From Narcine bancroftii (Eukaryota), in assembly GCF_036971445.1 (NCBI RefSeq), contig NC_091473.1, forward strand, positions 250,666,001 to 250,730,000: a stretch of 64,000 nt of DNA, in the 5' to 3' direction. The first letter of the stretch is position 1. Every line of letters starts with the position of its first letter. This document shows, piece after piece, positions 841 through 39,670 of the stretch. The notes below the pieces were generated by a model, which saw only the letters and a list, made by a program, of their open reading frames with translations, did not search any database and had not been told where the DNA came from. The translations under genes and the position numbers were made by a program.

Positions 841-1067
841 CTGCAACAGAGAAATTGATGTGACAAGGGTAACTCATGTTCCATTACATCACTGACTAAT
901 TTAGGACAGAAACAAACTCCATACTAATGTCATATTGAAACCACATCAGAAAGGAAAAAATCTTATTTGAAGAAGTTCAAAATATTTAACTATCAGTTTT
1001 CTCAATCTCAGAATTAATTAGTCATGGTGACAAAATACAATGTTAAGGTTTGCTTCTTGTTGGATAT

Positions 1068-1400
1068 TGTAGCCATGTGCTACTCGAAAGAAGTCACACG
1101 CACGTAGTCTAGTCGGGTTAAGCTCAGACCCGACTTTTACACTTGCACCATTCCCGCCGTGGCCCCCCTTGGCCTGACGTCACAATATGCATAACAACAC
1201 CCTTCTCCCCCACCCACTCCCTGTCTGTTGGCTGCACAGCAAGGCTATCGCCATTTTGGGGTCGCTGGCCTTTAAGCTGCTCTTGCTGTTCACCCTCCGG
1301 TTCACTTGTCAGGGCCAGTGCTGCTGCGAGGGCTGCTGGCCTTTGATCGCACTTGCTTCCTGGAGTGCTGGCTCAATTGCCGCAGCGGCAGGATGCCACA
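1068..1400 (-). repeat. 3' LTR of Gypsy element 1
   Basis: Plus strand TGTAG...GCCACA, homologous to 5132-5525, adjacent polypurine tract on minus strand. Confidence 0.9.
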
Positions 1401-1589
1401 TGACCCTCCCTTCCCAGAACAGGCGGTATCATTCTTGCTATTGTCCTTGGAGGCAAAGTCTCTGCAGCCTTCGGTGGCCTGCCTCTTCGGCATGGTGCTG
1501 GTGTCTCGACCAGGCTCACCGTGTCCAGGTGTGGAGGCTTCAGCCTGTCTGTGGTGAAGTCCTCCGTCTTATCTCCGACCCAGCTCAAA

Positions 1590-4443: not shown

Positions 4444-5090
4444 GAAACGTTCATGGAGGCCTGCACCCTATCTCTGGTGGTAGAAGCACCACTGGTCATC
4501 TGGATCATCTCCTATGCTGCTATTCTCTCAGTGCCTCTGCACGGGTCTGGCTGCAGGTTTAGTGACGAGCCCCACGGACGCAGAGCATTCTTTCTTCTGC
4601 TTCCACAGAAAGTCCACTTATGCTGTGACATTTGGGGGGTGGGTCGCTGAAATCCACGTCAGCCAGGAGCAGTTGGATGTCCTTGGGCAGTTGCTGCAGA
4701 AATGCCCGCTCAAACATGATGCAGGGCTCATGTTTACCCAGGAGGGCCAGCATCTTGTTCATGAGGGCTGAAGGGAGCCTGTCCCCTAGCTCTTCCAGAT
4801 GGATCAGACATGCCCCTCTCTCATGGCGTCAGAGTCCGAAGGTCTTGATCAGCAAATCCTTGAAGGCGGTGTACGCGTCTTCCGATGGGGGACTCCCTGA
4901 TGAAATTGGCCACCCGGCATGCTGTGTCCTGGTCCAGGGGACTCACCACGAGATGGTACCAGATGAATTCTGCTGAGATGAGCCAGATCTGGAACTGTGC
5001 CTCAGCCTGGTCAAAGAACACGCGCGGTCGATTAGTCCAGAAGGTTGGCAGCTTGAGAGCGACTGCGTTGACTGCTGCCTGTTCGCTCAT
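4430..5090 (-). pseudogene. Gypsy gag remnant
   Basis: MSEQAAVNAVALKLPTFWTNRPRVFFDQAEAQF start at 5090, FERAFLQQLP segment, WCFYHQR zinc-knuckle start. Confidence 0.85.
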
Positions 5091-5116
5091 TGCTGGGTTT
5101 ATATGCTGTCTAAACT

Positions 5117-5129
5117 GTTGGGGTCACCA
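5117..5129 (-). other. Primer-binding site complementary to tRNA-Trp 3' end
   Basis: Minus strand TGGTGACCCCAAC, 2 nt inside the 5' LTR. The tRNA-Trp 3' end is ...GTCGGGGTCACCA (one CpG-type mismatch). Confidence 0.85.
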
Positions 5130-5131
5130 AT

Positions 5132-5525
5132 TGTAGGCGTGTGCACTACTTGAAGGAAGTCACACACACAGCGCAGTCAGGTTAAGCTCTGACTTTTATT
5201 AAGGCTCAAGCTCTACTTTTATTCTTGCACGGTTCCCGCTGTGGCCACCCCCTTGACTGACGTCACAACATGCATGACAAAAGCAGGTTTCCTCCACGCA
5301 GGTACTTTCCTGCATAACAATGCCCTTCTTCACTATGTGCTGTCCCTGTCTGTTGGCTACGCAGCAAGGCCAGCACCATTTTGGGGCATCTCGTCTTTAA
5401 GCTGCCCTTGCCGTTCACCTGCTGGTTCATTTGATGGGGCTAGTGCAGCTGCGCAGGCTGGTGGCATTTGGTTGTGCTCACTGCCTGAAGCGCTGGCTTG
5501 ATCGCCGCAGCTGCAGGCCACCACA
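5132..5525 (-). repeat. 5' LTR of Gypsy element 1
   Basis: TGTAG...CCACA, homologous to 1068-1400, minus-strand AATAAA at 5200-5195 and 5223-5218. Confidence 0.9.
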
Positions 5526-5924
5526 TTATGATGACATGAATAATTTGCAAAGGAAATTTTCTGCCTAGTCTAGTGGTTGTAATCATGTTTGCATGGCCAC
5601 TAGCAAGGCCTTGATTATAATTCCTGTTTGATTAGACTTGGCTGCCAGCAGGAGCTGACACAGTGCAAGACATAGTATGCAAGACATAGTATGCAAGATT
5701 TGTAATGGAGGCTTGCAGCTTCATGGTGCTGTTCACATCAACTTTAAAGTAAAGAACCTTTTCCTTCATCCATGTGTTGTCTAAGAACTCACTCATACAA
5801 ATACAAGATGAAACAATGGTGACTCAACATTTTGGAACTCCCACCCAATATACGAAGTACATATAGTTCTAATGCATATAGCATTGATAAAACTCTCAAT
5901 TCTGCATCCCATTCCCATACTTGC

Positions 5925-6730
5925 ATGGCCTCGTATCCTATCCCACCAAGACCATCCATAAATTTGAGGAACAACACCTGATTTCCCATCTGAGTACCTT
6001 CCAGCCAGATGGCATTAACATCGACCTCCAGTTTCTGCTAACCTACTCTCCTTTCTCCCCTTCCCCATCTCTCTACCCTATTACAGGCTCCTGTTTTAGT
6101 AAAATTGGATTATCACTGTGTAAGACAGGAGGAACTGAATGGTCAGTTAACATTCAACATCAGCACCCACAAGTCACAGCCCAGTGACAATTCGATACAT
6201 TGGAAGAACTGAGGGAAGGTTGCCACAGTCTGTTCCAGATTCGATACATTTGTAAAGACATTGAGATTGTGCCAAGGGAGAACCACGCTGACGGCTAAAG
6301 AGAAAACAGCCTCTTGAAGCAGTTCTTGTGGCCAGCCTTTCTGTGGAATTCAGAGCAAAGCATGCCGTTAATGATTGGCACTTTTCAGTGGACTGACCTA
6401 TGCCAGGAAGGTCTTTTCAAAAGCAAAATACTTCATTTTGAGGGTGACTTGTTAGGCACGGTTCGTAACAACCCCGTTTCCTCTCATTTCGCCTAGCCAT
6501 CCTTCCTCCCCCATTACCTCCTGCCTTTGGAACCATGCTCCACCCCCCCCCAATCCCTCCCACCCTCATTTTATTTGGACACCTATCGAAATTTTTCCAT
6601 ACCTTGATGAAGGGCTCAAGCCCGAAATCTCAGTTATGCATCTTTATTTTCACCATGTTTGACCAGCTGAGTTTGTTCAGCATTGTGTTTTTACTTCAAC
6701 CACGATATCTGCAGACTTTCATGTTTTACC
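5925..6730 (+). mobile_element. Penelope-like element 3' remnant (GIY-YIG C-terminus, pyrimidine-rich UTR, hammerhead-like motif), interrupted at about 6080-6470
   Basis: KFEEQHLISHLSTFQPDGINID at about 5955-6025; TTGATGAAGGGCTCAAGCCCGAAA at 6604-6627; family tail ...TCTGCAGACTTTCATGTTTTAC. Confidence 0.75.
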
Positions 6731-7156
6731 TCCCAATGGGTCTCCCATTTGATCTTGGTAAATAGTGACAACATTTGAGAGCCAATCAAAACTTCAAACA
6801 AGTGCATGCATTAATGCACTGCATGCAAGAGAACCTCTCACTCTTTAAAGCAAATGTAATAATTCTTACCAAAATTGCTATTATAAATCCCAAGAAATGT
6901 AAATTAAGAATACAAGATTCACAAATCTATTCCTCACTTGAAAATATATCACTCATCAAAACAAGGGAATATAATCAAATACAAAGCATCTTGAAATGGC
7001 ATGAGATTAGCAAAAAGTGCTCACAAATCCACATTTATCCCAAAGCTGTATTAAAGTGACAATTTATATTTAATCAAAGACGTCATTTTTAAACTTGTCA
7101 AGTGTCAACATTTGCATCCAGGACCAAAGGTTCATCTAAAACGATTTCAGACTCAC

Positions 7157-7199
7157 TTCATTTGTTTCACAATGGTACTTTTTCCAGATTCTCCAGCAC
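7157..7199 (-). CDS. GNAI3: G protein alpha-i subunit, coding exon 2 (P-loop GAGESGKSTIVKQMK)
   Basis: 43-nt exon, polypyrimidine+TAG acceptor, GTGAGT donor; not in the ORF track but read directly. Confidence 0.95.
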
Positions 7200-9120
7200 C
7201 TACAAAGAAAAAGAGTAACCACCGTCACACTTGACATTTCACAACTTTTGATTGCAATCTTTGTGTACTGCAATCAAGCTCGACCATTCAATATTGTCAA
7301 TGCTACACACAAAAATGTTTAAAAAGATACATCTAACCAAACTGCAAAAACTTTGTGGTCAAGAATCAATAATTTTGTTTATTAATTTCTGGGGACCAGA
7401 TTTTAAGTATGCAAGAACATTACTAGAGATAATGTTTGGAAATAATACTTAAATTTCATGCTATCCCATCGAGATTCTCATCAAGATACATTTCTCACAT
7501 GCTGTGTAATGTACTTTGGGCAGCTTCCTGATAATAGACATTTAAAGGAGTCGTTGTCTAATTGAGTGGTGCAAGCCTTCCTGTTATTTCAAGTTGTACC
7601 ATTTACAGCCTATTTCAGTTATTACTAACCACAATGGCAACTGTGCTAGAATAGTAAGTCTAGGTTATGAATGCAGCACAGAAACTCCAAGAGATCTCAG
7701 TCTTACTGCAGTTGACAGTGTGACATTAGTTCTGTTAAGTAATCAAAGACTTTAATGTGCCAGTTGGTCTGACATAACCATTTCCAAGATTTTCAAACCA
7801 ATGGGAGGTGGAGAACTGGAGCAGCAAGAAGAAAACTGGTTTTCCATTTTGCAAGAAAGTGCTGGTATGAAATATGCTGGCCCCTATCGGAAGTAAAATT
7901 AACAAATACTTGCAACTTTTCTAATAAACAAGGTCATCCTAAAACATGCAAGTCTATAAATGCATCGGTAAATCATTCTGATTACAGACAGTGCAGCAAA
8001 CCAGATGTCTTTTCCTGGATTTAAAAAAGGTCCAGCTCCTACACTGGGGCCCCACAGAACCTTGGATAGGAATTTCAGTCAAAGATTTATTCGCTACAAG
8101 TTGTATATTCTTGCTAGTCATCTGATTTCATAATTTATCAAAAATTAACCCAAAATGTTCATTTTGTTTCTCTCCACTGATGGCTGAATATATTTTCAGC
8201 ATCTGCTTTTCATTTGACAGTAAAATTTGCAGTGAAATCAAAATTAATGGGGGATCATTTAACAAATTTTGTAAAGATAATTTATTGAACAATATTTCAA
8301 GTTCTATCATAATAAGAACATTATTTGTAACCTGCTGCAAAAACTTCTTAAGTTTCAACTGTGCCCTTTATAAATACAGAGGAACCTGAACTATATTCTT
8401 GATCTTACATTACATGTGCAGCCATACCAAATGTAGCAATCACGTTAATATTTTGAAACCTGTTCATAATTGAAGTGCAAATTATAATTGGGCTATAAAC
8501 CAAAATGTGACATATACAGAGCAAACATGATCAAACACACTGAAGTTCAACTTGCTGACCTTCTGATCCAGTTTGAAACAAATGAAATTCAAAAAAATTG
8601 AGAAATAAAGATTTTAATTACGTACCTATGGTAGAACGGTGGTAACTATAACTAACAAAAACTGACAAATGAAAATGAGGAGGGTGCAGTTTGTTACCAA
8701 TACTTATTTCAGAAAGACAGCCATGTCAGTGGAAATTTTAAAGACCTCTTTTGTATAGATGTAACAAAAACAAATTCTTCGTAGAAAAATAGGTGATTTT
8801 GCATTCTGCAACCTTATTATTAAAGCTTATACAACAACCCACAGGAAGCAATTATGGAACATGCGTACAACTAAGAAACAGTATTTTAAATTTGTGAATA
8901 AATAATGAGTTATCCCTCCTTAATAGGATAGATTTTTCCCTAGATTTAAACAATTTAAGTACAGGAAAGGAGGTTGTTCAAATTAGTGCATACTCATTAT
9001 TGTGCGGCCTCAAGATCACCTCTCAGCCACAGGAAACAAGTTGCAAAGCCCTGCATTCTTATTTTGCAAAGCCCTGCATTGCTTTTTTTGTGCTTCCAGT
9101 GACACCAAATCTTTACTGTA

Positions 9121-9312
9121 CAGGTAGTCCTCAACTTACAACCTATGCTAGTTACGTCCACCTGCACACACGACCAATTTTTAAAAAATACTCTACATAT
9201 GCTGAGATTCTTCACTAAAGGTTCATTTGTTGACATGCAAATCAGATACAACAAATCTAAGTTATGACCAATCCTTAGGTCCCAATTAAGGTCATAAATG
9301 GGTGACTACCTA
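9121..9312. mobile_element. Tigger/pogo-type MITE
   Basis: TA then CAGGTAGTCCTCAACTTACAACC, with degenerate inverted copy GGTCATAAATGGGTGACTACCTA at the right end. Confidence 0.65.
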
Positions 9313-9616
9313 TTCTGAATACTTAGACAAATCAGAAACCTATTTCTTGGGTAACAACAGCACATTGTGCTTTAATGATTTCTGATCCACTTTACCCTTT
9401 CCAAACTACAACCAAAGATTATCCACTGACATCACTCCATGCTACATTTTTTGCTTTCCAGCAGTTTCAGAGTTTATACACGTTAATTAAGGAATGGCAA
9501 TATACAGCCAAATCAATGTGGTATGCAAATAGGATTTAAGAGGTCACGAGATCAGCTATTCTCAAACCTTTTTTGGCTATGGTCGAGTGAAGCAATCAAG
9601 TTTAGTTGGTTTCTTC

Positions 9617-9815
9617 TTTACTTTGACTTTAGTAAGGCTTTTGACAAGGTTCCCCATAAGAGGTTAGTAAGGAAGGTGGTAGCATTAGGTATTAATGATG
9701 AAGCAGTGAAATGGATTCAGCAATGGTTGAATGGGAAATGCCAGAGAGTAGAGGTGGAAAACAGTTTGTCGAATTGGAGGCCGATGATGAGTGGAGTGCC
9801 TCAGGGATCAGTACT
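9617..9815 (+). mobile_element. CR1/HER1 LINE RT fragment
   Basis: YFDFSKAFDKVPH...SGVPQGSVL. Confidence 0.85.
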
Positions 9816-10060
9816 GGAGGGGAATACAAAATTGGCAACGGCCCCATTAACAATGAATTTATACACTGCAGCTATATACAACATGCTAGTGGTGGAAGTA
9901 ACGAATCCTTATGATGGTGAATGGGGTGTCAAAATGAAATGAACTGATTTGTCCTGCATGGTGGCATTAAGCTTCTTGGATGCTGTTGGAGCTGTATTTT
10001 CCAAGCAATGGAATACATTCCATTGTTGTCTTGGCACGTCTTGCAACTAATGAAAAGAGG

Positions 10061-10230
10061 TGAAGCACAAAAGTCTGCAGACAATGTGATTGTAGTAAAA
10101 ACAGAAATGCTGGAGGAACTGACATTTTGGGCCTAACCCCTTCTTCATGGTATGGCTCAGGCTCAAAACATTGATCATAAATCTTTACCTTCTATGGATG
10201 CTGCAAAACTTGCTGATTTCCTCAGCAGTT
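10061..10230. mobile_element. Penelope-like 3' termini in inverted arrangement
   Basis: Minus-strand tail (AAAAGTCTGCAGAC...ATGCTGGAGGAACT) joined to a plus-strand tail (GGCTCAGGCTCAAAAC...CTATGGATGCTGC). Confidence 0.6.
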
Positions 10231-10611
10231 CTAAGATTTTAATGAAAAAGGGCTTCAGGTGGCAGGTCAGGTCAGTTCCAACACCATATACTACCTTTGA
10301 CCCATTTATGTAATTGGTCCATAACAATACATTCTGAAGATGGGCATGCCCAGTGACTAGTGATAATACACGTTTGTTAACACTCAATGACTGGCATACA
10401 AACTCACGAAAAGATCAATGATGATCGGCAGGCCTAGCAAATTGCCCTGAGGATATCTTGCAGCAATGTCATGGGAGTTTGAACAATACTTGAACAATGC
10501 AACAACTACATGCTTTGTGCAAGACTCTAACCACTTCCTGGAAGACAGAGGAGTAAATCTATCTTGCATGTCCAATAAAACAACAGTGCGAAGTTCCCCA
10601 CAGGAGGTTAG

Positions 10612-11764
10612 TGACAAAGTTCCCCACAGGAGGTTAGGAAAAAAGGTGGAGGCATTAGGTATAAATGAGGAGGTAGTGAAATGGATTCAGCAATGGTTGG
10701 ATGGGAGGTGCCAGAGAGTAGTGGTAGAAAATTGTTTGTCCAATTGGAGGCCGGTGACTAGTGGAGTTCCTCAGGGATCAGTCCTGGGTCCACTATTGTT
10801 TGTTAAATATATATTAATGATCTGGAAGTAGGGGTGGAGAATGGATAAGCAAGTTTGCGGATGATACAAAGATTGGTGGTGTTGTGGACAGTGAGGAAGA
10901 TTACCGTAGATTAAAAGGTGATTTAGGAAGGCTGGAGGTGTGGGCTGAGAAATGGCTGATGGAATTTAATCCAGATAAGTGTGAGGTGTTACATTTTGGA
11001 AAGGCCAATCTAAATAGGTCATATGCATTAAATGGTCGGCTATTGAGATGTGCAGAGCAACAAAGGGATTTAGGAGTTGTGGTAAATAGTACCCTCAAGG
11101 CTGATACTCAGGTCGATGGTGTGGTGAAAAAGGCATTTGGAATGTTGGCCTTCATAAATCAGAGTATTGAAGAGTAGGGAGGTTATGATGAAATTGTACA
11201 AGGCATTGGTGAGGCCAAATTTGGAGTACTGTGTACAGTTTTGGTCACCAAATTATAGGAAAGATACAAACAAAATAGAGAGAGTACAGAGAAGGTTCAC
11301 GAGAATGTTGACAGGATTTCAGGGTCTGAGTTACAGGGAAAGGTTGCGCAGACTGGGGCTTTTTTCTCTGGAGCATAGAAGATTGAGAGGGGACTTGATC
11401 GAGGTGTTTAAGATTTTAAAAGGGACAGACAGAGTCAACGTGGATAGGTTTTTTCAATTAAGAGTGGGGGAGATTCAAACTAGAGGGCATGGTTTAAGAT
11501 TGAAGGGGGAAAATTATAAGGGGAACATGAGGGGAAATTTCTTTACGCAAAGAGTGGTAGGGATGTGGAATGAGCTTCCGGCAGACGTGGTTGAGGCGGG
11601 ATCATTGGTTACATTTAAGGAAAGACTGGATCGTTACATGGAGAGGAGAGGACTGGAGGGGTGTGGACCGGGTGCTGGTCAGTGGGACTAGGAGGGTGGG
11701 GATTTGTTACGGCATGGACTAGTAGGGCCGAACTGGCCTGTTCTGTGCTGTAAGTGGTTATATG
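10612..11764 (+). mobile_element. 5'-truncated CR1/HER1 LINE (RT C-terminal half and 3' UTR)
   Basis: GVPQGSVLGPLLF, KFADDTK, RPNLEYCVQFWSP, FFTQRVV, tail GGCCTGTTCTGTGCTGTAA. Confidence 0.93.
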
Positions 11765-13214
11765 AAAAAAATCAGGACTAGTTAAATTGCTCAGAGCTTA
11801 GCCTATAAGGCCTGGTAAAAGTTTAACAGAATTTCTCTGCTTTTCACTCTCTCCACTTGCTTGGTTTACTCTTTTGCTTGGCTTTATTAATTAGCATTAA
11901 ATATTCCAGTTTACTTTTTATAAAACATTCAGAGTTGCTTCTTTTTAACTAGCTTGAAGCAAAATTTATTGCCTCAGAATTTAAAATCACGTAGACTATA
12001 ATTTGAACTGCAAATGCACACAGCTACAATCGTGGAACAAGGGAGCAAAAAAAAAAATCAAGCTTTCTACTAAACATGGTCCCAGAATTACATAGGTCTG
12101 AAAAGGCTCAAAAGAGCCTTGTATTGAAATAGAGCCATTACATAGCAACAAAAAAAAAGTCAGGTAGATGTTAAAAAGCTGGGTAAAAGACATTGGCTCC
12201 AACAAGAATCTTGAAAGAGTGATTTTTGGAAGGAGTCTCAGGCTTCTGACACATGAAAGCACAGCTGCATCCAGCCACAATAAGAATACTGTAGAATTGA
12301 TATTTCAGGGAGTATGAAGAGATTATAAACAGGAAGAGCTGAAGTTCTGATGATATTTAAAAGGATGAGCACATTGAAAAATCAATGTATTTCTCAAATG
12401 GAGATTCAGATCAACCCACAAGCAAAGGAAGTGATAAGTGAATGGGGCTTTGTATAATTTGAAGCGCAAGTAGCAGAGATTTACCTTCAGGGAAAATGAA
12501 GGAAAGGAAATGAATTAGGAACACAATTAGCCAGGCAGCTTCTAAGAGATGGAATTAGGCAGTCTTAATGATGGCTTTCAAATAATCCTTCGGTAACATA
12601 TTAAAGAACGTTCTGGTTCAGCTTAGCTGATATCAAAAAGAGCAATGAAGTGTGTAGCCAGGAAGTAGAGTTTGGAGCAGAAACAATTTCAGTAGAACAC
12701 TTTCAAGCACTAACAATTTGGAATAACAAAACTGGAAAGGGTTTGGTGCAAGAAAAAAAGTGCTAGGGAATCTCAGCAGGTCACAGAGTGTCTATAGTAA
12801 GGAAAGGGATATAACCAATGTTTCAGGCCTGCACCCTTAGCAGGTTTGAGAGAAGCAATGGCAAGGAATGAGCAAGTATTGCTAGAGTACACATAGAAAC
12901 TGAGGTTCTTCGAGTGCTTCTAATAAGCAGTTGTAAATGGGAAATGGAAGCAAGTAAATAGAAAAAGGAATAAAAGCAAAAATGCCAGGATTGCCAGAAA
13001 GCATTTTCAAAAACGTATGGGAATTGTAGTAGGCTAATTGGGTGGCACGGACTCAGGAGTTGGAAGGCCCTGTTGCCATGCTGTATGTTTAAATTTCAGA
13101 ATCAAGCTAATTTGATATTCTAATAAAACAGCCTTTTAAGTACATTTCAAGTGCTTTGTGTAAAATTGAAATTAGACAAAATTATTCCACAAAGTTCAAG
13201 CTATGTCAGCATCC

Positions 13215-13540
13215 ATTTGCAGGACAAAAGGTGGTCTCTCAAGAAAGCAGCCTCTATCAAGGGCCCTCACCACCCAGACCATGTCCTTTTCTCACAGCTA
13301 CCATCAGGAAGTAGGTACAGGAGCCTGAAGACGCAGACCCAATGTTATAAAACAGCTGGCTTCCCAATAAATTTCTGAAAGGAAAATGAATCTGTTGACA
13401 TTACCTCACCTTTTTTTCTGCACTAATTATTCTGAAATATTGTATATATGGAACTGCAATTTATAGCAATTTTCCACCTGTTTGCACCATACTGCTGCAA
13501 CAAAAAAAATATCAAATTTCATGGCAATAAACCTGAATCT
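13215..13540 (+). mobile_element. Rex1/Babar-type LINE 3' fragment
   Basis: KKAASIKGPHHPDHVLFSQLPSGSRYRSLK and CAATAAACCTGAA tail; shared with 24790, 55224, 61780. Confidence 0.7.
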
Positions 13541-13809
13541 TTTTTTAAATTCATATTTTAAAAATTATAAACACTAACATTAATGCAAATACCACTGAGA
13601 ACTACTAATTCAAATGGTTTAATAATCTTTTCTGTCAGCAAAAATTTTTTCTGTCAAAATTTGTCTGAAGGGACTACAAGACCATAATGCATGAAATGTG
13701 AACATGTGACAGAAAATAATATTGCAGGTGATAAGACTGTTATTGTTAAGAACTTCAGCACAGCTGCAAAGAAAGGCAATGATAGATTTGAAATTCAAAA
13801 TGTTTCCCT

Positions 13810-14022
13810 TGTGGCGGCGCACTCTCTCATGGCGAACCAGCCCCACGTGGTGGGGCAGCCAAGGGAAGATGACGCCATCAGGAGTTTTTCCTGACTCAAG
13901 CCTCCTGCGCAGCATGCACCTTAGTGACTGAGCCAGCGCTGCCCTTAAAGGCCGCGCGCTAAATTCAAATAAAACAGTCGTTAATGACCCTCAGCGTGGT
14001 GGCTGTGCTTTCTTCAGCTACA
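13810..14022 (+). mobile_element. Solo LTR with 4-bp TSD
   Basis: TGTGGC...GCTACA termini, internal AATAAA, CCCT at 13806-13809 and 14023-14026. Confidence 0.85.
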
Positions 14023-15769
14023 CCCTTTTATTAAATAAATCTAAGTTTCCTCTTGATGATGTGAAGATATCACAACACTTTCTGAGAAAGTCAGAGTACT
14101 AAGAGCTGGAGGGAATGTTCACATACCCCCATTGCAAGCAGAAAGGCAAGCTTAACAATTAGCCTGAGAAGTCCAGTGCAAGAGAAATGTTCATTAAATC
14201 CACAGTGGATGGATAATCTGTTGAATTAATACACATCTGTTCACCATCTGCACAACAGGAACAGAAATTTCAACTCACAACATCTAAATCATGAACTAGC
14301 ACTGTATAAATGGGAACACCCAGCATTCCAATCTTCACACTGCAAAATGCTCCAATCACCAGATATTGGAAAAGCTGACAAACTTATCTGATTTCCACCT
14401 TCTGCAAAAGCCAAATATGCTAGAAGTATTCAGGTCCGACAACCCATAAAGGACAAAGTTCACATTCCATGTTAATGACCTACCATTGGTCAACTCTGCT
14501 TCTCTCTCCACAGATACTGTCTGATCCTGCTGATTATTAAGAGCATTTTCTGTTTACATTTCAATCAAATTGCTGGATAACAAAAGAAACAATTTTATTA
14601 AAAAATCCTACACACATTTTTTCCCTCAACTCTGTCCAAACTGAATTGCATTGATGCTTCAAGATCAAAATAAGATCTCAGCAGAATAGCCCAACTTGGA
14701 AGGGAAACTTATCAGTGGGAGAGGAAGTTAACACAGATGAGTCAGTTATTCAGCCGACTAGTTGTGGGAAAATTAAGACTTGCAATGTCCCAAACTTACT
14801 TCTAGATTTCCCTTCCTCATGTGTGACTGATTAAATAGACGATACTTATGGCCAACATCCCAGAAATAACTTTTTTGGTGTGGGGTGCACCAAGATAAAA
14901 GACAAAAATGCACATGTACGTTTACATTAGGATGTTCATTTTCTCTCTCACGTGATTATTGTTCTCAGTTCTGTTCAAAAATAGGAAGTACAATCTCAAA
15001 ATGATGCAAGGAGTAAATGGGAGCCTCAAATGTAATCCAAAACAGTTATAAACGCAAGAAAGAAAGCATGTTGAAATTGATGCTTCATAAAGAAACCATC
15101 TTTCTTCTTTGATATGTGATGTATATTCAAAGGTATAAACATCATTTATCAACTGTTTTCATTGCAAAATGAAGCCACATGAACAATTTCTCTCAGCAGC
15201 ACGAATAAGAGAATTTAATCTTTTGGCAAGGATATTTCAACAGGCAGATCATATGAATTGAGCATTTCAAATGTACTTGTTTAGCCAGCATTCATTGTAG
15301 CCTATAGTTTTCTATTTCATGGGTTTTTTAAAAATGTCACAACTTTGAACCATTTTCTTTTGGATGACACATCTTGCCATCTTAACAAGGAGCTTGACAA
15401 AGGGGTCAGGCCTGAAACATTCATTATACATCTCTGCTCTCCTATGGATGCTGCAGATCCTGTTGAATTTCTCCAGGTGTTGGTCATATTATTCATTTTC
15501 CCTGGCCATTTTAAAATAGTGGGACAAGATCTGAAAGGCCAGAATAACACTCACTGAAATGTCATTAATTTGCAAACAATTTACATTGATTAACCATTCA
15601 AAAGAACAATAGGCTGTAAACATACACTTTTAATTCAAAAATATTTAAGACTAATAGTCATTAAGACTATGTGGAAGCAAAGGGATATATAGTTAATAAA
15701 TAAATGCGACGATTACGATATTATTGCATAGACTACACTGTCACTTCGTGCTTCACTCATTTGATCTAT

Positions 15770-16150
15770 GCATGGCAGCAGCCAACACCATAAAGGACCC
15801 CATCACCCTGGTCACCTTTTCTCACTGCTACCTTCAGGAAGAAGATACAGAAGCCAGCACCAATTCTCGAACAAATTCTTTCCAAAGACCATCAGGCTTT
15901 TGAACCGCCCCTCATTACACTAATCATGGATGCATAGAAATCACAAAACTACTGTCTGCATTATTGTAGATTTGCTTTTATTTTCATGCACTAGGATAAC
16001 TGAACATTTATCGACCATCTTTTGTATTTATTGTCTCTTTTTAATTTATTTATGTATTCTATTGTTGTCTTTTGTTTGTTAAGCACCTGCTCAGCTGGCG
16101 CAAGAATTTCAGTGCACATTGGTATCATACAATGCATCTGACAATAAACT
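15770..16150 (+). mobile_element. Rex1/Babar-type LINE 3' fragment
   Basis: KDPHHPGH.FSLLPSGRRYRS-like segment and TGACAATAAA tail. Confidence 0.65.
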
Positions 16151-18154
16151 AGTTGTCGAGCTCCAATTCTTTCCTGTAATCCCAACACACACACACTATT
16201 CCATTCTACAGCAAAATTTAGATGGGATATTTTTTTTAAATTTTCAGCCGATGAGTTAAAATATAAAATTCAAAAAGTCATAATAATTCAATAAATACCC
16301 AGAAGTAAATCCAATTAATGGTTCAGGTAAAACCCCATCTATTCTCTACTTTCTCCAACCAAAAAATGCTCAACCAATGCACATATCCAGTATTTTCAAT
16401 AAACTTTCAAGTCAACCTAGCATTAAGAGTTGAATTTCATTAAAAAACATTTGATCTATTTAGTCAACTTTGAGAATATTTTATCTGCATTTATTTAATC
16501 AGTTGTTAACAATGTCATCAGATTTAGTTTTTAAAAAAGCGCAAACTATTAAATTATGAAAAGCACACATCAAAAATCAGGAAGGCAAACCCTATGAAAT
16601 AAAGCCATCTCAACACTTTACTCTCAGTTTAACAAGGATACAAAAAGCTACGTTAGAAGTAACTTTAAACACTACGGCAACAGATTGGAGTACTGAGAGT
16701 TGCACAAATCCAAATACTGACAGAAGCTACTGTACAACATTTGTTGCCCTGGGACATTTTTTTTCATTCACTTTGATGCTGGCCCTGGAACCCATCTTAA
16801 TCCTCTCCCAACAAATATTCATTATTGACTGTTGATTATGATATCATTACATCTACCTCCAGGCCATTTATGCTGAGAGACTTTTGGTTTTCAGATACTG
16901 AAATATAAACCAGGAGTTATAATCTCCTGAATCTCAGCAGCCAAACTGATTTCCATTTCCTCATTCCCAATTCCCATCCCTCACCTCCTGAAGGATCACA
17001 CGTTGGTGATGCATTCCTTGGCAAAATAGTGTTGAACTTTGAGGACTACATTTTTGGAAAAACTTACAAATAGGAATTTGGTCAGAACCTGACCAAACAA
17101 AATAATCCAACCATCACAATATAAACCAAAATGTTGTTTTAGAGAGGTTTATAAATTTTCTTAGGAGTTAAATGCCTCTTTTTAAATAATGTACCCAGTG
17201 TTTTTTTTTAAAAAATAATGGCTCAAATATGCAAATAAAAAAACAAGCCGACTTGTCTGCTTCAATATTTTTAATAACTAATTATTCAAACTCCCAAGAC
17301 ACAGTTTGCTCTGCAGGATCTTCCTCGTAAATGCCTCAAGCTGCAAGTTTCTACACTGCAACTTATGACCTGATCCAGTTTAAAAATTTCATTCATAGTT
17401 TTATACTGAATTGTTATGCTTTGCCACTTCAAAGCATACATTTCATCCTCCAGTCTCAAATGAAGTCCAATTGCAAATTCCATCTCATCGGTCCAAACCC
17501 CTGCATTCATCGTTGGTTTATCTCTTCCAATATTCATTACTGGTCAATGTCCTCTACACATTAAACCAACATCAGTGTATAAACAAATCAATTCTTCTCA
17601 GAAACATCCAATGTCAAAATATTTCATTCCAACTTTAACATCCTCCCTTTCACGCATTTTTTTTTGTCCCACATTTTATTCATGCAAAGTCACAAACTAA
17701 ATTTTCTAAAATGTTAGCTATGGCTTACTGGGTTGTTCTGTTAACTATCAGAAAGTGATAACTTCATTACAAATCCAGGCCGACACCTCAGCATATCCAC
17801 AGTGGCTGTACTAAAGAGAGGTGACAAAGATACAAAGGGATCCAGGGAAACAAGTTTTTTTCCAGCCTTTTAACAAACCATTAACAAAATCAAGGAATCC
17901 AACCTCTGGATACACCCATCCGCTTCCCTCACCATAGAGAGAGCCAGCCATTCATTTCCCTGCAATCTTATGTTGTTTTACTTTTGAGTGTTGTTCAATT
18001 GGCCTTTAAAGTATCACAGACATTCTTGCCAGTAATCCCAAATGCTGGGGCTTTTAAACTGATGATCTCCATCACATTTCTACTCTGACTTCTTTGCTCC
18101 TCAAATTTCCAACACCAATCTTTGGCTTCAGGAAGTTGAAATCATTTAAAAATG

Positions 18155-18435
18155 GCCGCCCCCCCCCCAGCGTGGGAGGGGGGGGGGCAGCCGCCCCCAG
18201 CGTGGGAGGGGGGGGGCAGCCGCCCCCAGCGTGGGAGGGGGGGGGCAGCCGCCCCCAGCGTGGGAGGGGGGGGGGGCAGCCGCCCCCAGCGTGGGTGGGG
18301 GGGGGCAGCCGCCCCCAGCGTGGGTGGGGGGGGGGCAGCCGCCCCCAGCGTGGGTGGGGGGGGGGCAGCCGCCCCCAGCGTGGGTGGGGGGGGGGCAGCC
18401 GCCCCCAGCGTGGGTGGGGGGGGGGGGCAGCCGCC
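18155..18435. repeat. G-rich minisatellite, 9 units of about 29-31 bp (CAGCCGCCCCCAGCGTGGG[A/T]Gn), GNAI intron 1
   Basis: Direct reading; units differ only in A/T and G-run length. Confidence 0.95.
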
Positions 18436-19212
18436 GGGCTCCTTCTGTGCAGTCAGGCCCTGAAATTAACCCCCTCGTCCCAGGAGTCCGAAGACACAGC
18501 GCCTCCTGGAGTCCAGGCTGACACACGACAGGGGAGAAAACAGGCGCAACCCCATGGCGTCTGCAGCACTGCTGCTTCCCCCCCCCCACCCCTCCCCCCC
18601 TCACAGCCCCCCCCCCCCTCATGCCTCGGCCTCTCCAGCCCCTGCTCCTCACCGAGCAGCAGCAGCTTGACCTCCCGGGACGACTTTTCACCGTCTTCGC
18701 GCAGGTTGCGGTCGATCATCCTGCTCCTCGCCATCGCCGCCTTGTCCTCGGCACTCATGGTGCAGCCCATCGCGGCGGCCGGGGTGGGGGGGGGGGGGGG
18801 GGGGGGGAACCAGGACCAGGACCAGGACCCGGGCTTCGTTGGGCTCCGCCGGTGGCTGCTTCGTTCCTTCGCCCAACTCCGCTTCACCGGCTGAACGCGT
18901 GGGTTTTCCTCACGGGGAGTCGGGAGAAAGGAGTGGAGGGGGGGGGACGGGATGGGGGGTGGGGGGGTCCTCACCCTGCACGAAGCTCCCTGTCCGTCCG
19001 AGGGCCACCGGCGCCCGAACCGTTAGCGGTTCAAACCCCACCGCTCTCCACCAGCCCTGACAGTTAGCGTTTGAAAGCGGAAACCCTGCCCTTTTCTGAC
19101 CTCACATCCTGTCCATTTCCGGCCATCGCGCGTTGCCTCACGGGAATTGTAGTCTCTCTTCGGAGCGCGGATGGGAAACACCTCGGCCATAGTGTAGATC
19201 TTTCAGTGGCCG
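18430..19212 (-). promoter_or_regulatory. CpG-island promoter/5' UTR of the Gi alpha gene
   Basis: GC- and CpG-rich island over exon 1 in AT-rich surroundings; ACTACAATTCCC (ZNF143/THAP11-type) at 19153-19142; ETS-like CCGGAAAT near 19115-19122; Kozak GCCGCCGCGATGG. Confidence 0.8.
18653..18770 (-). CDS. GNAI3: G protein alpha-i subunit, coding exon 1 ([39 protein letters not shown])
   Basis: 118 coding nt, ATG at 18770, GTGAGG donor at 18652; G2/C3 lipidation motif intact. Confidence 0.95.
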
Positions 19213-20330
19213 CCCATTCCCATTCCCATGCCCCATCATCTCATCCCTATTCCCAATCATTCCCCATTCCCAATCCCTATTCCCATTCCCATGCCCCATC
19301 ACATCCCCATTTCCCATCATCCCATTCCCATTGCCAATCTTCATTCCCCATCACATCCCCAATTCCTATTCCCATGCTGCATCATCTCATCCCCATTCCC
19401 TATTTCCAATCCTCATTCCCCATTCCCAATCCTTATTCCCATTCCCATGCCCCATCATCTCCCATCCTCATTGTCTATTCCCAATCATTCCCCATTCCCA
19501 ATCCCTATTCCCATTCCCATGCCCCATCACATCCCCATTTCCCATCATCCCATTCCCATTGCCAATCTTCATTCCCCATCACATCCCCAATTCCTATTCC
19601 CATGCTGCATCATCTCATCCCCATTCCCTATTTCCAATCCTCATTCCCCATTCCCAATCCTTATTCCCATTCCCATGCCCCATCATCTCCCATCCTCATT
19701 GTCTATTCCCAATCATTCCCCATTCCCAATCCCTATTCCCATTCCCATGCCCCATCACATCCCCATTTCCCATCATCCCATTCCAATTGCCAATCTTCAT
19801 TCCCCATCACATTCCCAATTCCTGTTCCCATGCCACATCATCTCATCCCCATTCCCTATTCCCAATCCTCATTCCCCATCCCATTCCCAATCCTTATTCC
19901 CATTCCCATGCCCCATCATCTCCCATCCTCATTGTCTATTCCCAATCATTCCCCATTCCCAATCCTCATTCTTCATTCCCAATCCCTATTCCCATTCCCA
20001 TGCCCCATCACCTCATCCCCATTCCCAATATTCATTCCCTATTCCCATTTCCCATCACATCCCCATTCCCCATCATCCCATTCCCCATCCCATTCCCTAT
20101 TCCCATTCCCATGTCCCATCCCCATTCCGAATCCTAATTCCCACCCCCCATCATCCCATCCCCATTCCCCATCATCCCATTCCCCATCCCATTCCCTATT
20201 CCCATTCCCATGTCCCATCCCCATTCCGAATCCTAATTCCCACCCCCCATCATCCCATCCCCATTCCCAATCCTCATTCCCCATCCCATTTCCATTTCCC
20301 ATCCCAAATCCCCATTTCCCATCCCATTCC
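19213..20330. repeat. (ATTCCC)n-derived satellite with 228-bp and 99-bp higher-order units
   Basis: Marker TTGCCAATCT recurs at 19331, 19559, 19787; marker TGTCCCATC recurs at 20112, 20211. Confidence 0.92.
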
Positions 20331-25338: not shown

Positions 25339-25475
25339 ACCAGATGGTAATTACAGGCTGCTAAATGCATTGGTGGTCTAATTATGTATGTTAACATTTA
25401 AAGCGTGCAATAGATTTTTTAAAAGAACTGAATTTTAAAATGTGGATTGAATTCTATCCACAATTTGCTGCTGTC

Positions 25476-25644
25476 ATTGGGCACCTGACTACATTAATTC
25501 ATACCTTGATGAAGGGCTCAAGCCCAAAACATTGGTTATGTATCTTAATCTTTGCCATATAAAGGACACTGTTTGACTGGCTGAGTTTCTCCAACATTGT
25601 GTTTTTACTTCAACCACAGTGTCTGCAGACTTTCATGTTTTACT
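25476..25644 (+). mobile_element. Short Penelope-derived insertion with hammerhead-like motif and 12-bp TSD
   Basis: TTTGCTGCTGTC at 25464-25475 and 25645-25656; CATACC-TTGATGA-A-GGGCTCAAGCCC-AAAAC-ATT-GGTTATG at 25500-25540. Confidence 0.85.
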
Positions 25645-26636
25645 TTTGCTGCTGTCTGACCTTGCTTGCCTTGACTTCCAGTGTGTAATCAAAGATCAAC
25701 TCACATATACAAATATTATTTGAAGGGATGCAGAGTATTGCCCAAATATTGTTGTGCAGGTTATCAGTTCAAATCAGTTGTTACTGGAACAACAGCTGGA
25801 GAATGCACAAAGCACCAGCTAAATATCCTTATACAGTACTTCTGGAAAATACTATAAACAGAACCATCATTTCTGTCAATGGAAAGAGGCCATTTGGCCC
25901 CTTGTCCATACTAGCTGCTGCTCGAGCGATACAATAAGTTAAATTTTCAACAGTTGGAGGTCAAATGATTAGAATAACTTGTTAAAAAATAGCCTTATTA
26001 TCTATGTGGGTTCAGATGCCAATTCAGCAACTTGAATCCTTATTGCAGTCTGCATCTGTTCTATCTTTCGACTGAGAGAGGCTAATCTTGCTTCTCTGAT
26101 TGAAATGATAGATCCCAAGGAATTCTCCTGATGATAAGACCAACATCTATCCTTCCAAACACCAGAAACAGATAACCAAGACTATTGATGTGTATCAGCC
26201 TTGCCCTGATGGAATTGATCACCTAATTTTAAGTGAATACTATTGTAAAATATGCAATTGGAAGCTAACTGAGAAAGATGCAAATCCGGGCATATTCTTT
26301 CCTACAAAAAAAGCAGAAAATGGTGGTGACAATCAACAGGTCACGCAGCATCGGTAGAATGAGAAACAGATTTAGTGTTTCAAGTTGATGACTTTTCTGA
26401 AGTTATCACCTCCAACATTGACCCTAATTTTTGTTGCACAGGTGTTGTTTGACCAGCTATTTATAATATGTTCTGTTTTTGATTTCAGTTTTCTAGCATC
26501 TGAAGATTTTAAAAAAATTTTAAATTATATTTTCTTTCTTAATTGTAAGGTGAAGCCATTTTATTCAGTGCTATTTCTAAATGTGATCAAGTTGGAAAGG
26601 ACTGGAAATTCATTCTACTTCCAACAGTATTTTATT

Positions 26637-26760
26637 TCTGCGGACACCGTGGTTGAAGTGAAAACAATGCTGGAGAAACTCAGCAGGTCAAACAGTGTCT
26701 GCAATAGCAAAGATAAAGATACAGAACCGACGTTTCGGGCTTGAGCCCTTCATCAGGGGC
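26637..26760 (-). mobile_element. Short Penelope-derived insertion with intact hammerhead core
   Basis: Same family as 25476 on the minus strand. Confidence 0.8.
26729..26756 (-). ncRNA. Minimal type I hammerhead ribozyme motif (putative)
   Basis: CTGATGA-A-GGGC-TCAA-GCCC-GAAAC-GTC: both conserved core boxes, 4-bp helix II, palindromic ACGT helix III, GUC triplet. Activity untested. Confidence 0.65.
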
Positions 26761-27524
26761 TACTCCTATCATTTTATTCCTATCTCTTTTTAAAAAAATT
26801 TTCCTCAGATATACATTGTGAACTCTCAGCAATTATTCAGTTTTGTAACAGGCAAGATTGCTTGTCTGAATTCTCACACTGTTTTCCCACAGTTCTTGTG
26901 TGTTCATCAAGGTACAATCTCTGCTTCTTCAATGAAATCTTGTGTGTCTGTTTTCTCTGGCCGATTCCGGTCCAGCTTCAGAGTCAACTTTGGTTCAGGC
27001 ACAACTCCAAAAATATGAACATATAATCCTGTCTGGCTGTTCTGAGCAGCATTGCAGGGTCCCTGAAGACCAAAACATGCCTTTAAGATGAAATATTGAA
27101 CCCTACTAAAACAAAAATTCAATGCATTACATTGAAGGAGAGGTGTGGAGATGAGTCTCTAGAAGTTGTCAGGTCAATATAACTGAGGGATACTGCATTT
27201 GTAAAGCACTGCATCTGCAGTATTTCCAATTTTTCGGCAATACTTAAAACAAAAAAAGGCTAGAACTACCCGGCAGCCCAGGCTGAACCTGAGAAAAGAG
27301 GAAAGAGTTGCCAATTCATGTTGAAAATCCTTCCTCTGAATGGTCTCATAAGTATAATAAATGTAGTCGAGTTGCAGATGTTTTCAAAAGAAAGCAATTT
27401 GTTTCATAATCGAAGGAAAGCAGATGCATTGACTAATGGTGCTGTTTAACTAATTTTAATAAATGATTCATGGTTGCAGATTAGATTATATCTTCTGATA
27501 AGAGTGTATATTTTTCCACCATCC

Positions 27525-35622: not shown

Positions 35623-38390
35623 AGAAACATAGAAAATAGGTGTAGGAGTAGGCCATTTGGCCCTTCAAGCCAACACTGCCATTCATTATGATAATGGCTG
35701 ATCAGTACCCGGTTCCTGCCTTCTCCCATACCCCCTAGTCCCCTTAGCCACAAGGGCCAAATCTAACCTACACTTAAATATTGACAGGGAACCGGCCTCA
35801 ACTACTTCCTGTGACAAAGAATTCCACACATTTACCACTCTCTGAGAGAAGAAATCTTTCCTCACCTCAGTCCTAAAAAAATTCCCCCTTATCCTTAAAC
35901 TATGGTCCCTGATTTTGGTTTTTCCCAGCATTTGAAACAACTCTCCTGCATCTAGTCTGTCTAAATCCTTAAGAAGTTTATGTTTCTATAAGACCCCCCC
36001 TTCAATCTTCTAAATTCCAGAGAATACATGTCTAGTCTATCCAACCTTTCTTCATATGTGAGTCCCTCCATCCCAAGTATCAGCCTAGTGAACCTTCTCT
36101 GCACCCCCCCCCCCCCGCCCCAAGCAAGGATATCCTTCCTCAGATAAGGCGACCAAAACTGCACACAGTACTCCAGGTGTGGTCTCACCGAGGCCCTGTA
36201 CAGCTGCAGCAGGATCTCCCTACTCCTAGGCTCAAATCCTCTTGCTTTGAATGCCAACCTACCATTCGCCCTCCTCACCGCCTGTTGCACCTGCACGCCC
36301 ACTTTCAACGATTGATGCACAGCAACACCCAAGTTTCTCTGCATCTCTCCTTTTCCTAAACAGATACCATTTAGACAATAGTCTTTCCTGTTCTTACCTC
36401 CAAAGTGGCCCACTCGCATAACTTGTCCAAATCATCCTGCACTCTTCTAGCATCCTCCACACAGCTAACCCTGCCACCCAACTTCGTATTGTCTGCAAAT
36501 GTCGAGATATTGCTATCTATTCCCACATCTAAGTCATTGATGTATATCGTAAACAACTGTGGCCCCAGCACTGAGCTCTGCAATACCCCACTAGTCCACT
36601 GGCTGCCATTCTGAAAGAACCCATTTATTCCTACTCTTTGCTTCCTGTCCCTCAACCAATTCTCTATCCACCTTAATACCATACCACCTATACTGTGCTC
36701 TTTAAGTTTATATGCTAGTCTTCTGTGCAGAACCTTATCAAATGCCTTACTAAAGTCCAGATATACCACATCCACTGGTTCTCCCCTATCCACTCTACTG
36801 GTTACATCCACAAGAAACTATTAGATTCGTCAGACGTGATTTCCCCTTCACAAAACCTTGCTGACTCTGTGCGATGATACCACTACTTTCCAAATGTACT
36901 GCAATTGCATCTTTAATAACCGATTCTAGCACCTTCCCTACTACCAATGTCAAGCTAACTGGTCGGTAGTTTCCCGATTTCTCTCTCCCTCCCTTTTTCC
37001 AATCCTCAGGAACTAATCCAGTATCCAAAGAGGTTGAAGCATTATCTCCAACGCATTCACTATTTCCTGGACTACTTCCTTCAGCTTCTCGGATGCAGAC
37101 TATCTGGCCCCAGGGATTCATCTGCCTCTAATCCCTGCAATTTAACTAATACAACTTCTCGACTTACAATTATTTCCTTTAGTCCCTCCGTCACAATAGA
37201 TCCCCGATCCTCAATAATTTCCTGTAGATTAGTTATGTCTTCCTTGGTGAAGACAGAACTAAAATAGTCATTCAAACAGTCTGCCATATCCTTGTTCCCC
37301 ATGATCAACTCACCTGTTTCTGTCTGCAACAGACCCACATTTGTCTTAACTAACCTCTTTCTCTTAACGTATCTATAAAAGCTTTTACAGTCATTTTTTA
37401 TGTTCCCTGCCAGCTTCCTCTCATAATCCCTTTTACCTTTCCTAATGAATCCTTTTGTCCTCCTCTGCAGAACTCTGAATTTCTACCAATCATCAAGTAT
37501 ATTATTCTTTTTGGCTAATTTTTAAGATCCTTCTTTGGATTTGACACTCTCTCAGATCTCCCTTGTTAGCCATGGATGCGCTACCTTCCTCGATTTATTC
37601 TTCATACAAACTGGGATGTACGTTTTCTGCACTTGCTCCAAGCTATCCTTAAATATTGCCATTGTATTTGTATAAGTGAAATAGTGAATGCGTTGGTGAT
37701 AATGCTTCAACCTCTTTGGATACTGGATTAGATCCTGAGGATTGGAGGGTGGCCAACGTAACTCCACTCTTTAAAAAGGGAGGGAGAGAGAAATCGGGAA
37801 ACTACTGACCAGTTAGCTTGACATTGGTAGTAGGGAAGGTGCTAGAATCGATTATTAAAGATGCAATTGCAGTACATTTGGAAAGTAGTGGTATCATCGC
37901 ACAGAGTCAGCAAGGTTTTGTGAAGGGGAAATCACGTCTGACGAATCTAATAGTTTCTTGTGGATGTAACCAGTAGAGTGGATAGGGGAGAACCAGTGGA
38001 TGTGGTACATCTGGACTTTAGTAAGGCATTTGATAAGGTTCCGCACAGAAGACTAGCATATAAACTTAAAGAGCACATTGTTAGTCCTTTAAGTACCATT
38101 TGCCAATCTATCTTAGCCAATTCACATCTCATACCATCAAACTCTTCAAGTTCAAAACCTTTGTATCCATATCAACTCTGTCACATTCCATCCTAATGAA
38201 GAATTCCACATATTGTGGTCATTCTTGCCCAAGGGGTTCTTCACAACAAGATTGCTAATTAACCCTTCTCCATTAATCAATACCCAGTTTAGAATGGCTC
38301 GTTCCCTCATTGGTTCCTCAACATGCTGATTTAGAAAACAATCCCACGTACATTCTAAGAAATCCTCTTCAACCTTACCCTTACCAATGC
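35623..38390 (-). mobile_element. Long CR1/HER1 LINE (endonuclease end to 3' UTR), decayed
   Basis: PLGKNDHN, NYRPVSLT, YLDFSKAFDKV, FADNTKLGG, RPHLEYCVQFWSP, FFSQRVV in the correct order on the minus strand. Confidence 0.93.
37678..38077 (+). repeat. Inverted duplicate of 36694-37066 inserted inside the same CR1
   Basis: Near-identical reverse complement; differs by a few substitutions and one 27-bp indel. Confidence 0.92.
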
Positions 38391-39365: not shown

Positions 39366-39491
39366 GAAGCTTTCATAGTGAGATAGCATGGTTACAATCT
39401 AATGTACACATTCCAACTAATTAAAGGTTACCGATTCTCTGGGTGAAATTATACATTAAAAAATCTGCATACCTATGAACTAAGAATTCAC

Positions 39492-39670
39492 ACACACCAA
39501 AATGCTGGAGGAACTCAGCCGGTCTTTCAACGTCCACAGGAGACCAAGATATATTGCTGACATTTCGGGCTTGAGCCTTTCTTCAAGGGCTACTAAAAGA
39601 CCAGCTGCGTTCCTCCAGCATTTTGGTGTGTTTTTACTACATTCACCATTTCTGCAGACTTTCATGTTTC
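39492..39670. mobile_element. Short Penelope-derived insertion with inverted 5' part and 13-bp TSD
   Basis: ACTAAGAATTCAC at 39479-39491 and 39671-39683; 36-bp inverted arms 39492-39527 / 39596-39631. Confidence 0.88.

What the first reader, a model, noticed from the sequence alone, without database searches (positions are those of the whole stretch)
26722..26760. Minimal hammerhead ribozyme with intact core; most sibling copies carry U3
Seen (minus): CUGAUGA-A-GGGC(UCAA)GCCC-GAAAC-GUC-GG. Across copies the consensus is CAUACC-UUGA(U/A)GA-A-helix II-GAAACGUC-GGUUAUG, where CAUACC pairs with GGUUAUG (6 bp, one bulge) as helix I and ACGU is a self-complementary helix III; many departures are CpG decay. 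Known: Penelope-like elements carry minimal type I hammerheads with tiny palindromic helix III that cleave as dimers. Notable here: an extra A after A9, and C3U in nearly all copies, which weakens the 3-8 pair. Helix I of this particular copy is only 2 bp because of 5' truncation.
Basis: partly seen in the sequence, partly recalled or inferred. Interest (0 to 1): 0.7.

Follow-up and report, generated by a model that had tools for sequence, protein, structure and literature searches.

The report
Dead Penelope stub, wobble-core hammerhead family
This is a short leftover end of a very common Penelope-type jumping gene that carries a complete textbook self-cutting RNA motif but is predicted not to cut here, while about nine in ten otherwise intact relatives carry a U where a C is normally fixed, which likely means the family spread with a weakened ribozyme.

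Summary
The motif is real: minus strand 26756-26727, canonical core, 4-bp helix II, ACGU in place of helix III. It opens a 123-base truncated 3' end of a Penelope-like element (RT, CX2-5CxxC linker and GIY-YIG upstream in long copies), one of roughly 4 x 10^5 old fragments. The extra A after A9 is a published consensus feature, not new. The U3 claim holds genome-wide: 1959 otherwise intact cores have U3, 190 have C3; with the family's helix I, 186 against 6. G8 is kept, so the pair is a U.G wobble; one such case stands in a 2014 alignment. This copy's C3 is probably a private change or junction base; it has 2 in-register helix I pairs and no intact same-strand partner, so it likely does not cut. 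New here: 5' ends do not pile up at the cleavage site, in 253 stubs or in 73 copies with the upstream repeat, which fits copying from uncut RNA. In one subfamily U3 is predicted to favour a helix that locks the core to the strand before the start codon. The scan reported this family before on other DNA of this genome (e1-9879921).

The parts
26637..26759 (-). 5'-truncated 3' end (pseudo-LTR plus part of the tail) of a Penelope-like element, subfamily here called A1; 7 differences in 114 aligned bases from the group majority
26729..26756 (-). Hammerhead core and helix II: C3-A9 (26756-26750), extra A (26749), GGGC/GCCC with UCAA loop, G12-A15.1, palindromic ACGU, C17
   Evidence: helix II pair probability 0.95 in a 56-nt fold, 0.54-0.69 with longer flanks
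26728..26729 (-). Predicted cleavage site between C17 (26729) and G1.1 (26728); not shown to be cut
   Evidence: hammerhead numbering as in PMC4209133 and PMC3088659; position read
26757..26758 (-). Remaining 5' strand of helix I (CC), able to pair with GG at 26728-26727; in-register pair probability about 0.01
26771..26778 (-). AATAAAAT, candidate left target-site duplication, followed by 11 bases of filler (26770-26760) before the element
   Evidence: read; chance not tested (AT-rich)
26629..26636 (-). AATAAAAT, candidate right target-site duplication directly after the element
   Evidence: read; chance not tested
26308..26406 (-). Nearest same-strand family copy, older subfamily, core destroyed: no dimer partner in cis
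25474..25655 (+). Nearest well-preserved sibling (U3, G12A by CpG decay), on the opposite strand

Best explanation
This is a truncated 3' end of an old Penelope-like retroelement that carries the element's minimal type I hammerhead motif, likely copied into the genome from RNA that had not been cut, and it is predicted to be inactive here. Shown: the motif, its place about 270 bases after the RT/GIY-YIG ORF and again upstream of the start codon in long copies, the family size, U3 with G8 in the three least diverged subfamilies, and no pile-up of 5' ends at the cleavage site. Inferred: the source elements of subfamilies A1, A2 and B carried a U3.G8 wobble that weakened cutting; they multiplied all the same, because reverse transcription starts in the tail downstream of the ribozyme and needs no cut; helices I and II were still kept, perhaps for slow, protein-assisted dimer cleavage or as part of the leader's fold. 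This copy's C3 is likely a private U-to-C change or a base of the 5' junction, not a selected repair.
For: PLE anatomy: GIY-YIG C-terminus upstream of the motif, RT motifs, linker and endonuclease in ORF-selected loci, repeat-leader-AUG continuity in 73 of 115 distinct copies with the ORF start. Old and dead: the 149 non-self protein matches are 50-68% identical to the query, most with stops; groups A1, A2, B are 10-17% from their majority. U3: 1959 vs 190 and 186 vs 6; unbiased copies A1 39 U of 46, A2 10 of 11, B 27 of 28, with G8 in 37, 10 and 22. Uncut templates: 197 of 253 stubs start 5' of the site, 5 start within +32..+37 against about 8 expected; 49 of 73 leader-bearing copies span the site, 2 start within +31..+40 against about 3 expected. 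The Anolis PLE inserts uncut RNA and its ribozyme mutants do not affect insertion in vitro (PMC11167929). This copy: in-register helix I about 0.01, fold z -1.14, no intact partner, apparently intergenic. Helix I kept between masters: A1 U2.4-A with a U bulge, A2 C2.4-G1.4 with an A bulge (13 of 22).
Against: No cleavage assay exists, and the papers that measure changes at the 3-8 pair were not held, so 'U3.G8 weakens cutting' rests on recall and on the C3G/G8C data. Missing 5'-end pile-up has no C3-lineage control, profile ends are fuzzy by several bases, and by eye L321 (and perhaps L314) begins at or next to G1.1. Upstream repeats may arise by tandem insertion rather than from uncut RNA. 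C3 copies outnumber a matched loop U-to-C control 6 to 1 (p 0.125) and make 6 of 45 unbiased A1 copies against 4.5% background, so a small C3 sub-lineage or a mutation hot spot is possible. The helix I change between A1 and A2 is one event on one branch; by the count of structure pairs helix I is only 68% paired.
Confidence: 0.8

Rival explanations
1. The U3.G8 hammerhead was a working, deliberately slow ribozyme: two copies in a tandem transcript, helped by the element's protein, cut after C17 late in the cycle, and U3 tunes the rate.
For: All other core bases, the extra A and G10.1-C11.1 are kept in every subfamily majority; helix I is kept through a two-sided change between A1 and A2; the Anolis PLE ribozyme is protein-assisted; minimal PLE hammerheads are slow even as dimers; L321 seems to start at G1.1.
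Against: No excess of 5' ends at the site in 253 stubs or 73 leader-bearing copies; no A8 compensation in the U7 and A7 subfamilies.
Confidence: 0.35
2. U3 is a folding switch: in full-length RNA the core's 5' strand pairs with the strand just before the start codon, which turns the ribozyme off and opens the hairpin that holds the AUG.
For: On the majority leader of 20 B-type copies the long-range helix has probability 0.99 with U3 and 0.06 with C3, the AUG hairpin taking over (0.94); duplex -16.7 vs -13.9 kcal/mol.
Against: In the A-type majority (10 copies, the group of this copy) the long-range helix is 0.00 with either base; only 3 of 16 single B copies and 1 of 6 A copies favour it; the anti-strand did not follow the change to U7 in group A; its local partner at the ORF start explains it. 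It was found after the fact and rests on a folding model.
Confidence: 0.08
3. This copy regained C3 and was kept by the host as a working ribozyme in a transcript near the G-alpha-i gene.
For: Fully canonical core with both CpG sites intact, which 2 of 107 sampled copies have; same strand as the gene, about 8 kb upstream of its first coding exon; low-depth contigs of one possible RNA run lie beside it.
Against: 190 such cores exist genome-wide; helix I is 2 bp in register and no partner is near; no host exon was found near it in 149 open stretches scanned; it was picked for its intact core.
Confidence: 0.03

Closest known systems
Minimal type I hammerheads (min-HHR) in pseudo-LTRs of metazoan Penelope-like elements (Cervera and De la Pena 2014, PMC4209133)
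   Same: Consensus CUGANGAH-G..C-GAAAN-palindrome-NUH is met letter for letter by this copy, with the extra base after A9, G10.1-C11.1 and ACGU; mostly single truncated copies; the Acropora Neptune row has the same 4-bp GGGC helix II with a 4-base loop.
   Different: Family majority is U3 with G8. The paper discusses only U3-A8 (Schistosoma); U3.G8 appears unremarked in one row (Saccoglossus 1). No cartilaginous fish is in its Table S1 or Figure S3.
PAc, Poseidon element of Anolis carolinensis (Frangieh et al. 2024, PMC11167929)
   Same: Ribozyme in the repeat just upstream of the tail; copies end at two tail positions (clusters near +103 to +108 and +138 to +150); uncut RNA appears to be the template.
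   Different: PAc has C3-G8 and its ORF starts at helix II; here the AUG lies about 150 bases after the cleavage site, and the protein has the CX2-5CxxC linker that Poseidon lacks.
Neptune clade of endonuclease-bearing PLEs (as defined in Craig et al. 2021, PMC8557442)
   Same: C-terminal GIY-YIG with cysteine and histidine ligands, CX2-5CxxC linker after the RT, pseudo-LTRs, inverted 5'-truncated neighbours, tail.
   Different: No RT tree was built, so Nematis is not excluded by a test; no intact ORF was found among the loci examined.
Non-LTR retrozymes (PMC7229834; bioRxiv 10.64898/2026.07.22.740005)
   Same: Type I hammerhead, PLE-derived.
   Different: This copy is solitary, not a tandem array, and is plainly the end of the autonomous element.

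Membership tests
Hammerhead ribozyme (this copy) | Core C3 U4 G5 A6 N7 G8 A9, G12 A13 A14, A15.1-U16.1, H17 | tested here: met
   core definition from PMC3088659
Hammerhead ribozyme (family majority) | Watson-Crick pair between positions 3 and 8 | tested here: not met
   U3 with G8 in 1959 of 2149 otherwise intact cores; 55 UG, 11 CG, 17 UA of 107, the UA mostly with C7 or in decayed copies
Hammerhead ribozyme (this copy) | Helix II closed by G10.1-C11.1 | tested here: met
   4 bp, probability 0.54-0.95; one two-sided change between subfamilies at 10.4-11.4 (CG 54, UA 14 of 107)
Hammerhead ribozyme (this copy) | Helix I adjacent to the core | tested here: inconclusive
   2 bp in register, probability about 0.01; a longer helix forms one base out of register
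Hammerhead ribozyme (this copy) | Self-cleavage after H17 | not testable with these tools
   no assay; assembled contigs cannot show RNA ends
PLE min-HHR | Extra base between 9 and 10.1; palindromic 15.2-16.2; no stable helix III | tested here: met
   A at 9.1 in 98 of 107; ACGU duplex -3.1 kcal/mol and formed between two copies in a co-fold; features
PLE min-HHR | Located in the pseudo-LTRs on both sides of the ORF | tested here: met
   3' side; 5' side contiguous with the ORF start: (the two sides were seen in different loci, plus one tandem, L162)
Penelope-like element, EN+ | RT followed by C-terminal GIY-YIG endonuclease | tested here: met
   RT motifs (DKG, GxxMG, YIDD) and LIYCIRC..C...YIGET in decayed copies; Pfam GIY-YIG only at E 0.076, under its cut-off
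Neptune clade | CX2-5CxxC linker between RT and endonuclease | tested here: met
   exact motif in 9 of 29 decayed loci, recognisable in more; shared with Nematis
Neptune clade | RT groups with Neptune in a tree | not tested
   no reference RT set was held
Non-LTR retrozyme | Tandem units each with a hammerhead | tested here: not met
   no tandem repeat at the site; neighbours are scattered copies

The most novel reading that the evidence does not exclude
A vertebrate Penelope lineage turned its hammerhead from a cutter into an RNA switch: U3 lets the core pair with the strand before the start codon, so that ribozyme-off and translation-on are one fold, and the element then spread to hundreds of thousands of copies without needing to cut.
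Probability: 0.07. Interest if true: 0.65.

Novelty: new variant of a known kind. Interest (0 to 1): 0.27.

Why it matters
What PLE hammerheads are for is open: PMC8557442 suggests they may merely ride along, and PMC11167929 finds cutting dispensable in vitro. A family whose successful source elements carried a wobble at the 3-8 pair through several waves of amplification, with C3 relatives in the same genome, is a natural test case. The single copy flagged here matters little: it is one of about 190 cores with C3 and probably inert.

Tried and rejected
Rfam scan of the window: no hammerhead family at E up to 5. Idea that the open stretch 26907-27062 is a last exon, putting the motif in a 3' UTR: no Pfam family, no meaningful Atlas or representative hit, and the one contig over it runs unspliced through the supposed acceptor; rejected. 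RNA evidence: no RNA holder listed on record; the contigs laid cannot show ends or strand, so cleavage in vivo stays open. Idea that full-length copies start at the cleavage site, raised by two loci: not borne out in 73 copies. Young intact source element: none among 150 scored protein matches. A second, permuted hammerhead around the start codon: the letters GAAA..UC..CUGAAGA occur in that order, but helix II would have at most 2 pairs; not pursued. Papers not held: Lunse et al. on small PLE hammerheads, Przybilski and Hammann, Nelson and Uhlenbeck. Literature searches for C3U or U3-G8 and for cartilaginous-fish hammerheads gave no paper on this family.

Full report
Observation. The minus strand at 26756-26727 reads CUGAUGA-A-GGGC(UCAA)GCCC-GAA-ACGU-C-GG. 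All core bases of the hammerhead as defined in PMC3088659 (passages read) are present; the predicted cut lies between 26729 and 26728. Helix II folds with probability 0.95 in a 56-nt piece and 0.54-0.69 with longer flanks; the in-register helix I has 2 pairs and probability about 0.01, the model preferring a helix one base out of register; two copies co-fold through the ACGU palindrome. The 56-nt piece is no more stable than its shuffles (z -1.14). Rfam has no hammerhead match in the window.

The family. A search with this copy gives 22 hits in the window. An iterated profile gives 25 in the window, 76 in 590 kb of evenly spaced samples (one further 10-kb sample, a satellite, was left out) and 0 in the reversed sequences; scaled to the 3.33-Gb genome that is roughly 4 x 10^5 fragments, 2.5 x 10^5 covering the core (rough). 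Upstream of the motif, long copies run through a pyrimidine-rich stretch into the end of an ORF with a GIY-YIG-type endonuclease, a CX2-5CxxC linker (exact in 9 of 29 decayed loci) and RT motifs; Pfam GIY-YIG scores only E 0.076. By the definitions in PMC8557442 (passages) this is Neptune- or Nematis-like, not Poseidon; vertebrates are reported to carry Neptune and Poseidon (bioRxiv 10.64898/2026.07.22.740005, first part and passages). Walking upstream gave 123 loci, 115 distinct with the ORF start, of which 73 have the same repeat directly before a short leader and the AUG. So the motif sits in both pseudo-LTRs. The family is old: the 149 non-self protein matches are 50-68% identical to the query, most with stops. 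The flagged copy is a 123-base stub (26759-26637) that differs at 7 of 114 bases from its group, with a candidate 8-base target duplication and 11 bases of filler at the 5' junction (read, chance not tested). It lies about 8 kb upstream of the first coding exon of a G-alpha-i-type gene; the only other host domain found in 149 of 249 open stretches scanned is an Ig V-set exon 36 kb away on the other strand.

The extra A after A9 is listed as a conserved feature of PLE minimal hammerheads, consensus CUGANGAH (PMC4209133, main text parts 1-2 and supplement 2 parts 1-2 read; supplement 1 not searchable). U3 is real and inherited: 1959 exact matches of an otherwise intact core with U3 against 190 with C3, and 186 against 6 with the A1 helix I and loop. 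In copies not picked by a pattern, U3 is 39 of 46 (A1), 10 of 11 (A2), 27 of 28 (B) and 7 of 7 (C); the more diverged, mixed groups D and E have 10 U/6 C of 18 and 7 U/3 C of 11; 50 copies stayed unclassified (the groups rest on marker strings chosen by eye). G8 is kept, so there is no U3-A8 compensation as in Schistosoma. One U3.G8 row (Saccoglossus 1) stands unremarked in Figure S3 of the 2014 paper. Three searches for C3U or U3-G8 and two for hammerheads in cartilaginous fishes found no paper on this family; Lunse et al. was not held and may cover it. That a 3-8 wobble lowers the rate is recalled; C3G and G8C are reported to abolish cutting of a PLE ribozyme.

Is this copy's C3 special? 3.1% of A1 cores with full helix I have C3; background U-to-C in sampled A1 copies is 4.5%. 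Against this, a matched loop U-to-C pattern has 1 match against 6 (p 0.125) and 6 of 45 unbiased A1 copies have C. A private change, a junction base (the stub begins 3 bases before position 3), or a small C3 sub-lineage all fit; none points to host selection.

Structure kept in the masters. In a hand-picked alignment of 40 intact-core copies (39 of the 60 pattern loci plus this copy) helix I is 68% paired, and the whole structure beats 500 of 500 shuffles for cells paired and all slid controls; helix II was fixed by the search pattern and says nothing. The clearest signal is A1 (U2.4-A, U bulge) against A2 (C2.4-G1.4 in 13 of 22, A bulge), one event on one branch, and CG/UA exchange at 10.4-11.4 between younger and older groups.

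Fossil test of cleavage. [quoted passage not shown] Of 253 unbiased stubs that reach the tail region (of 285 hits), 197 start 5' of the site and 5 within +32..+37, against about 8 expected; starts cluster instead just 5' of the ribozyme (50 within -10..+4), partly because old groups match the profile poorly further up. Of 73 leader-bearing copies, 49 span the site, 2 start within +31..+40 (about 3 expected) and 22 further down. By eye L321 and perhaps L314 begin at G1.1. There is no C3-lineage control. The result agrees with PMC11167929 (parts 1-2 read): reverse transcription starts at the tail, uncut RNA is the main substrate, and ribozyme mutants insert normally. 3' ends here also fall in two clusters, as tails do.

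A side result. The strand just before the AUG (CUCUUC-R-AGGG) pairs locally with CCCUGAAG after it, holding the AUG in a loop, and the ORF start resembles the ribozyme's own 5' half (12 of 15 bases in group A, 8 of 3000 shuffles; 11 of 15 in B, 152 of 3000, found after the fact). In the majority leader of 20 B copies U3 shifts that strand to the ribozyme core (0.99, against 0.06 with C3), but in the A majority it does not (0.00), and single copies mostly keep the local hairpin (3 of 16 B and 1 of 6 A favour the long-range helix). It is a lead for one subfamily, not an explanation of U3.

Verdict. The flagged motif is an ordinary, probably inert member of a known class. The family-wide U3.G8 wobble is a modest variant that makes an open question testable; the scan has reported it before on other DNA of this genome (e1-9879921).

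Noticed in passing
L074 (G000:C17:70000001-70010000): A 51-bp satellite of at least 197 units made from the antisense of the element's end downstream of the ribozyme; it holds no hammerhead core.
   Followed up: partly
L287-L406, around the ORF start: Conserved hairpin with the AUG in its loop; the ORF start carries CCCUGAAGAAG, a near copy of the ribozyme's 5' half with C3, and CGAAA lies just upstream.
   Followed up: partly
window 39458-39647 and 10045-10232: Head-to-head inverted pairs of the element's end; the first gives the spurious miRNA-family matches in Rfam. Many such junctions genome-wide fall inside or just 5' of the ribozyme.
   Followed up: partly
window 684-18704, minus strand: Exons of a G-alpha-i-type gene, first coding exon near 18700, with a 30-bp G-rich tandem repeat (18164-18435) in intron 1 and a CCCATT-rich array (19244-20330) upstream.
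   Followed up: no
window 63284-63691 and L139:4132-4539, L137:8415-8852: Ig V-set exons on the plus strand; the window copy and the L139 copy score identically, in line with a recent segmental duplication (95% alike flank).
   Followed up: no
window 36694-38077: 305-base arms 99% complementary around a 774-base spacer, with a second inner pair of 69 bases, inside LINE sequence.
   Followed up: no
window about 1100-5150 and 48100-51200: Two decayed LTR-retroelement-like stretches with RT/integrase-like reading frames; observed only.
   Followed up: no
L277 (G000:C1:367541862-367545214): A nearly full-length element start joined directly to telomere-type TTAGGG repeats in the middle of a large contig.
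   Followed up: no
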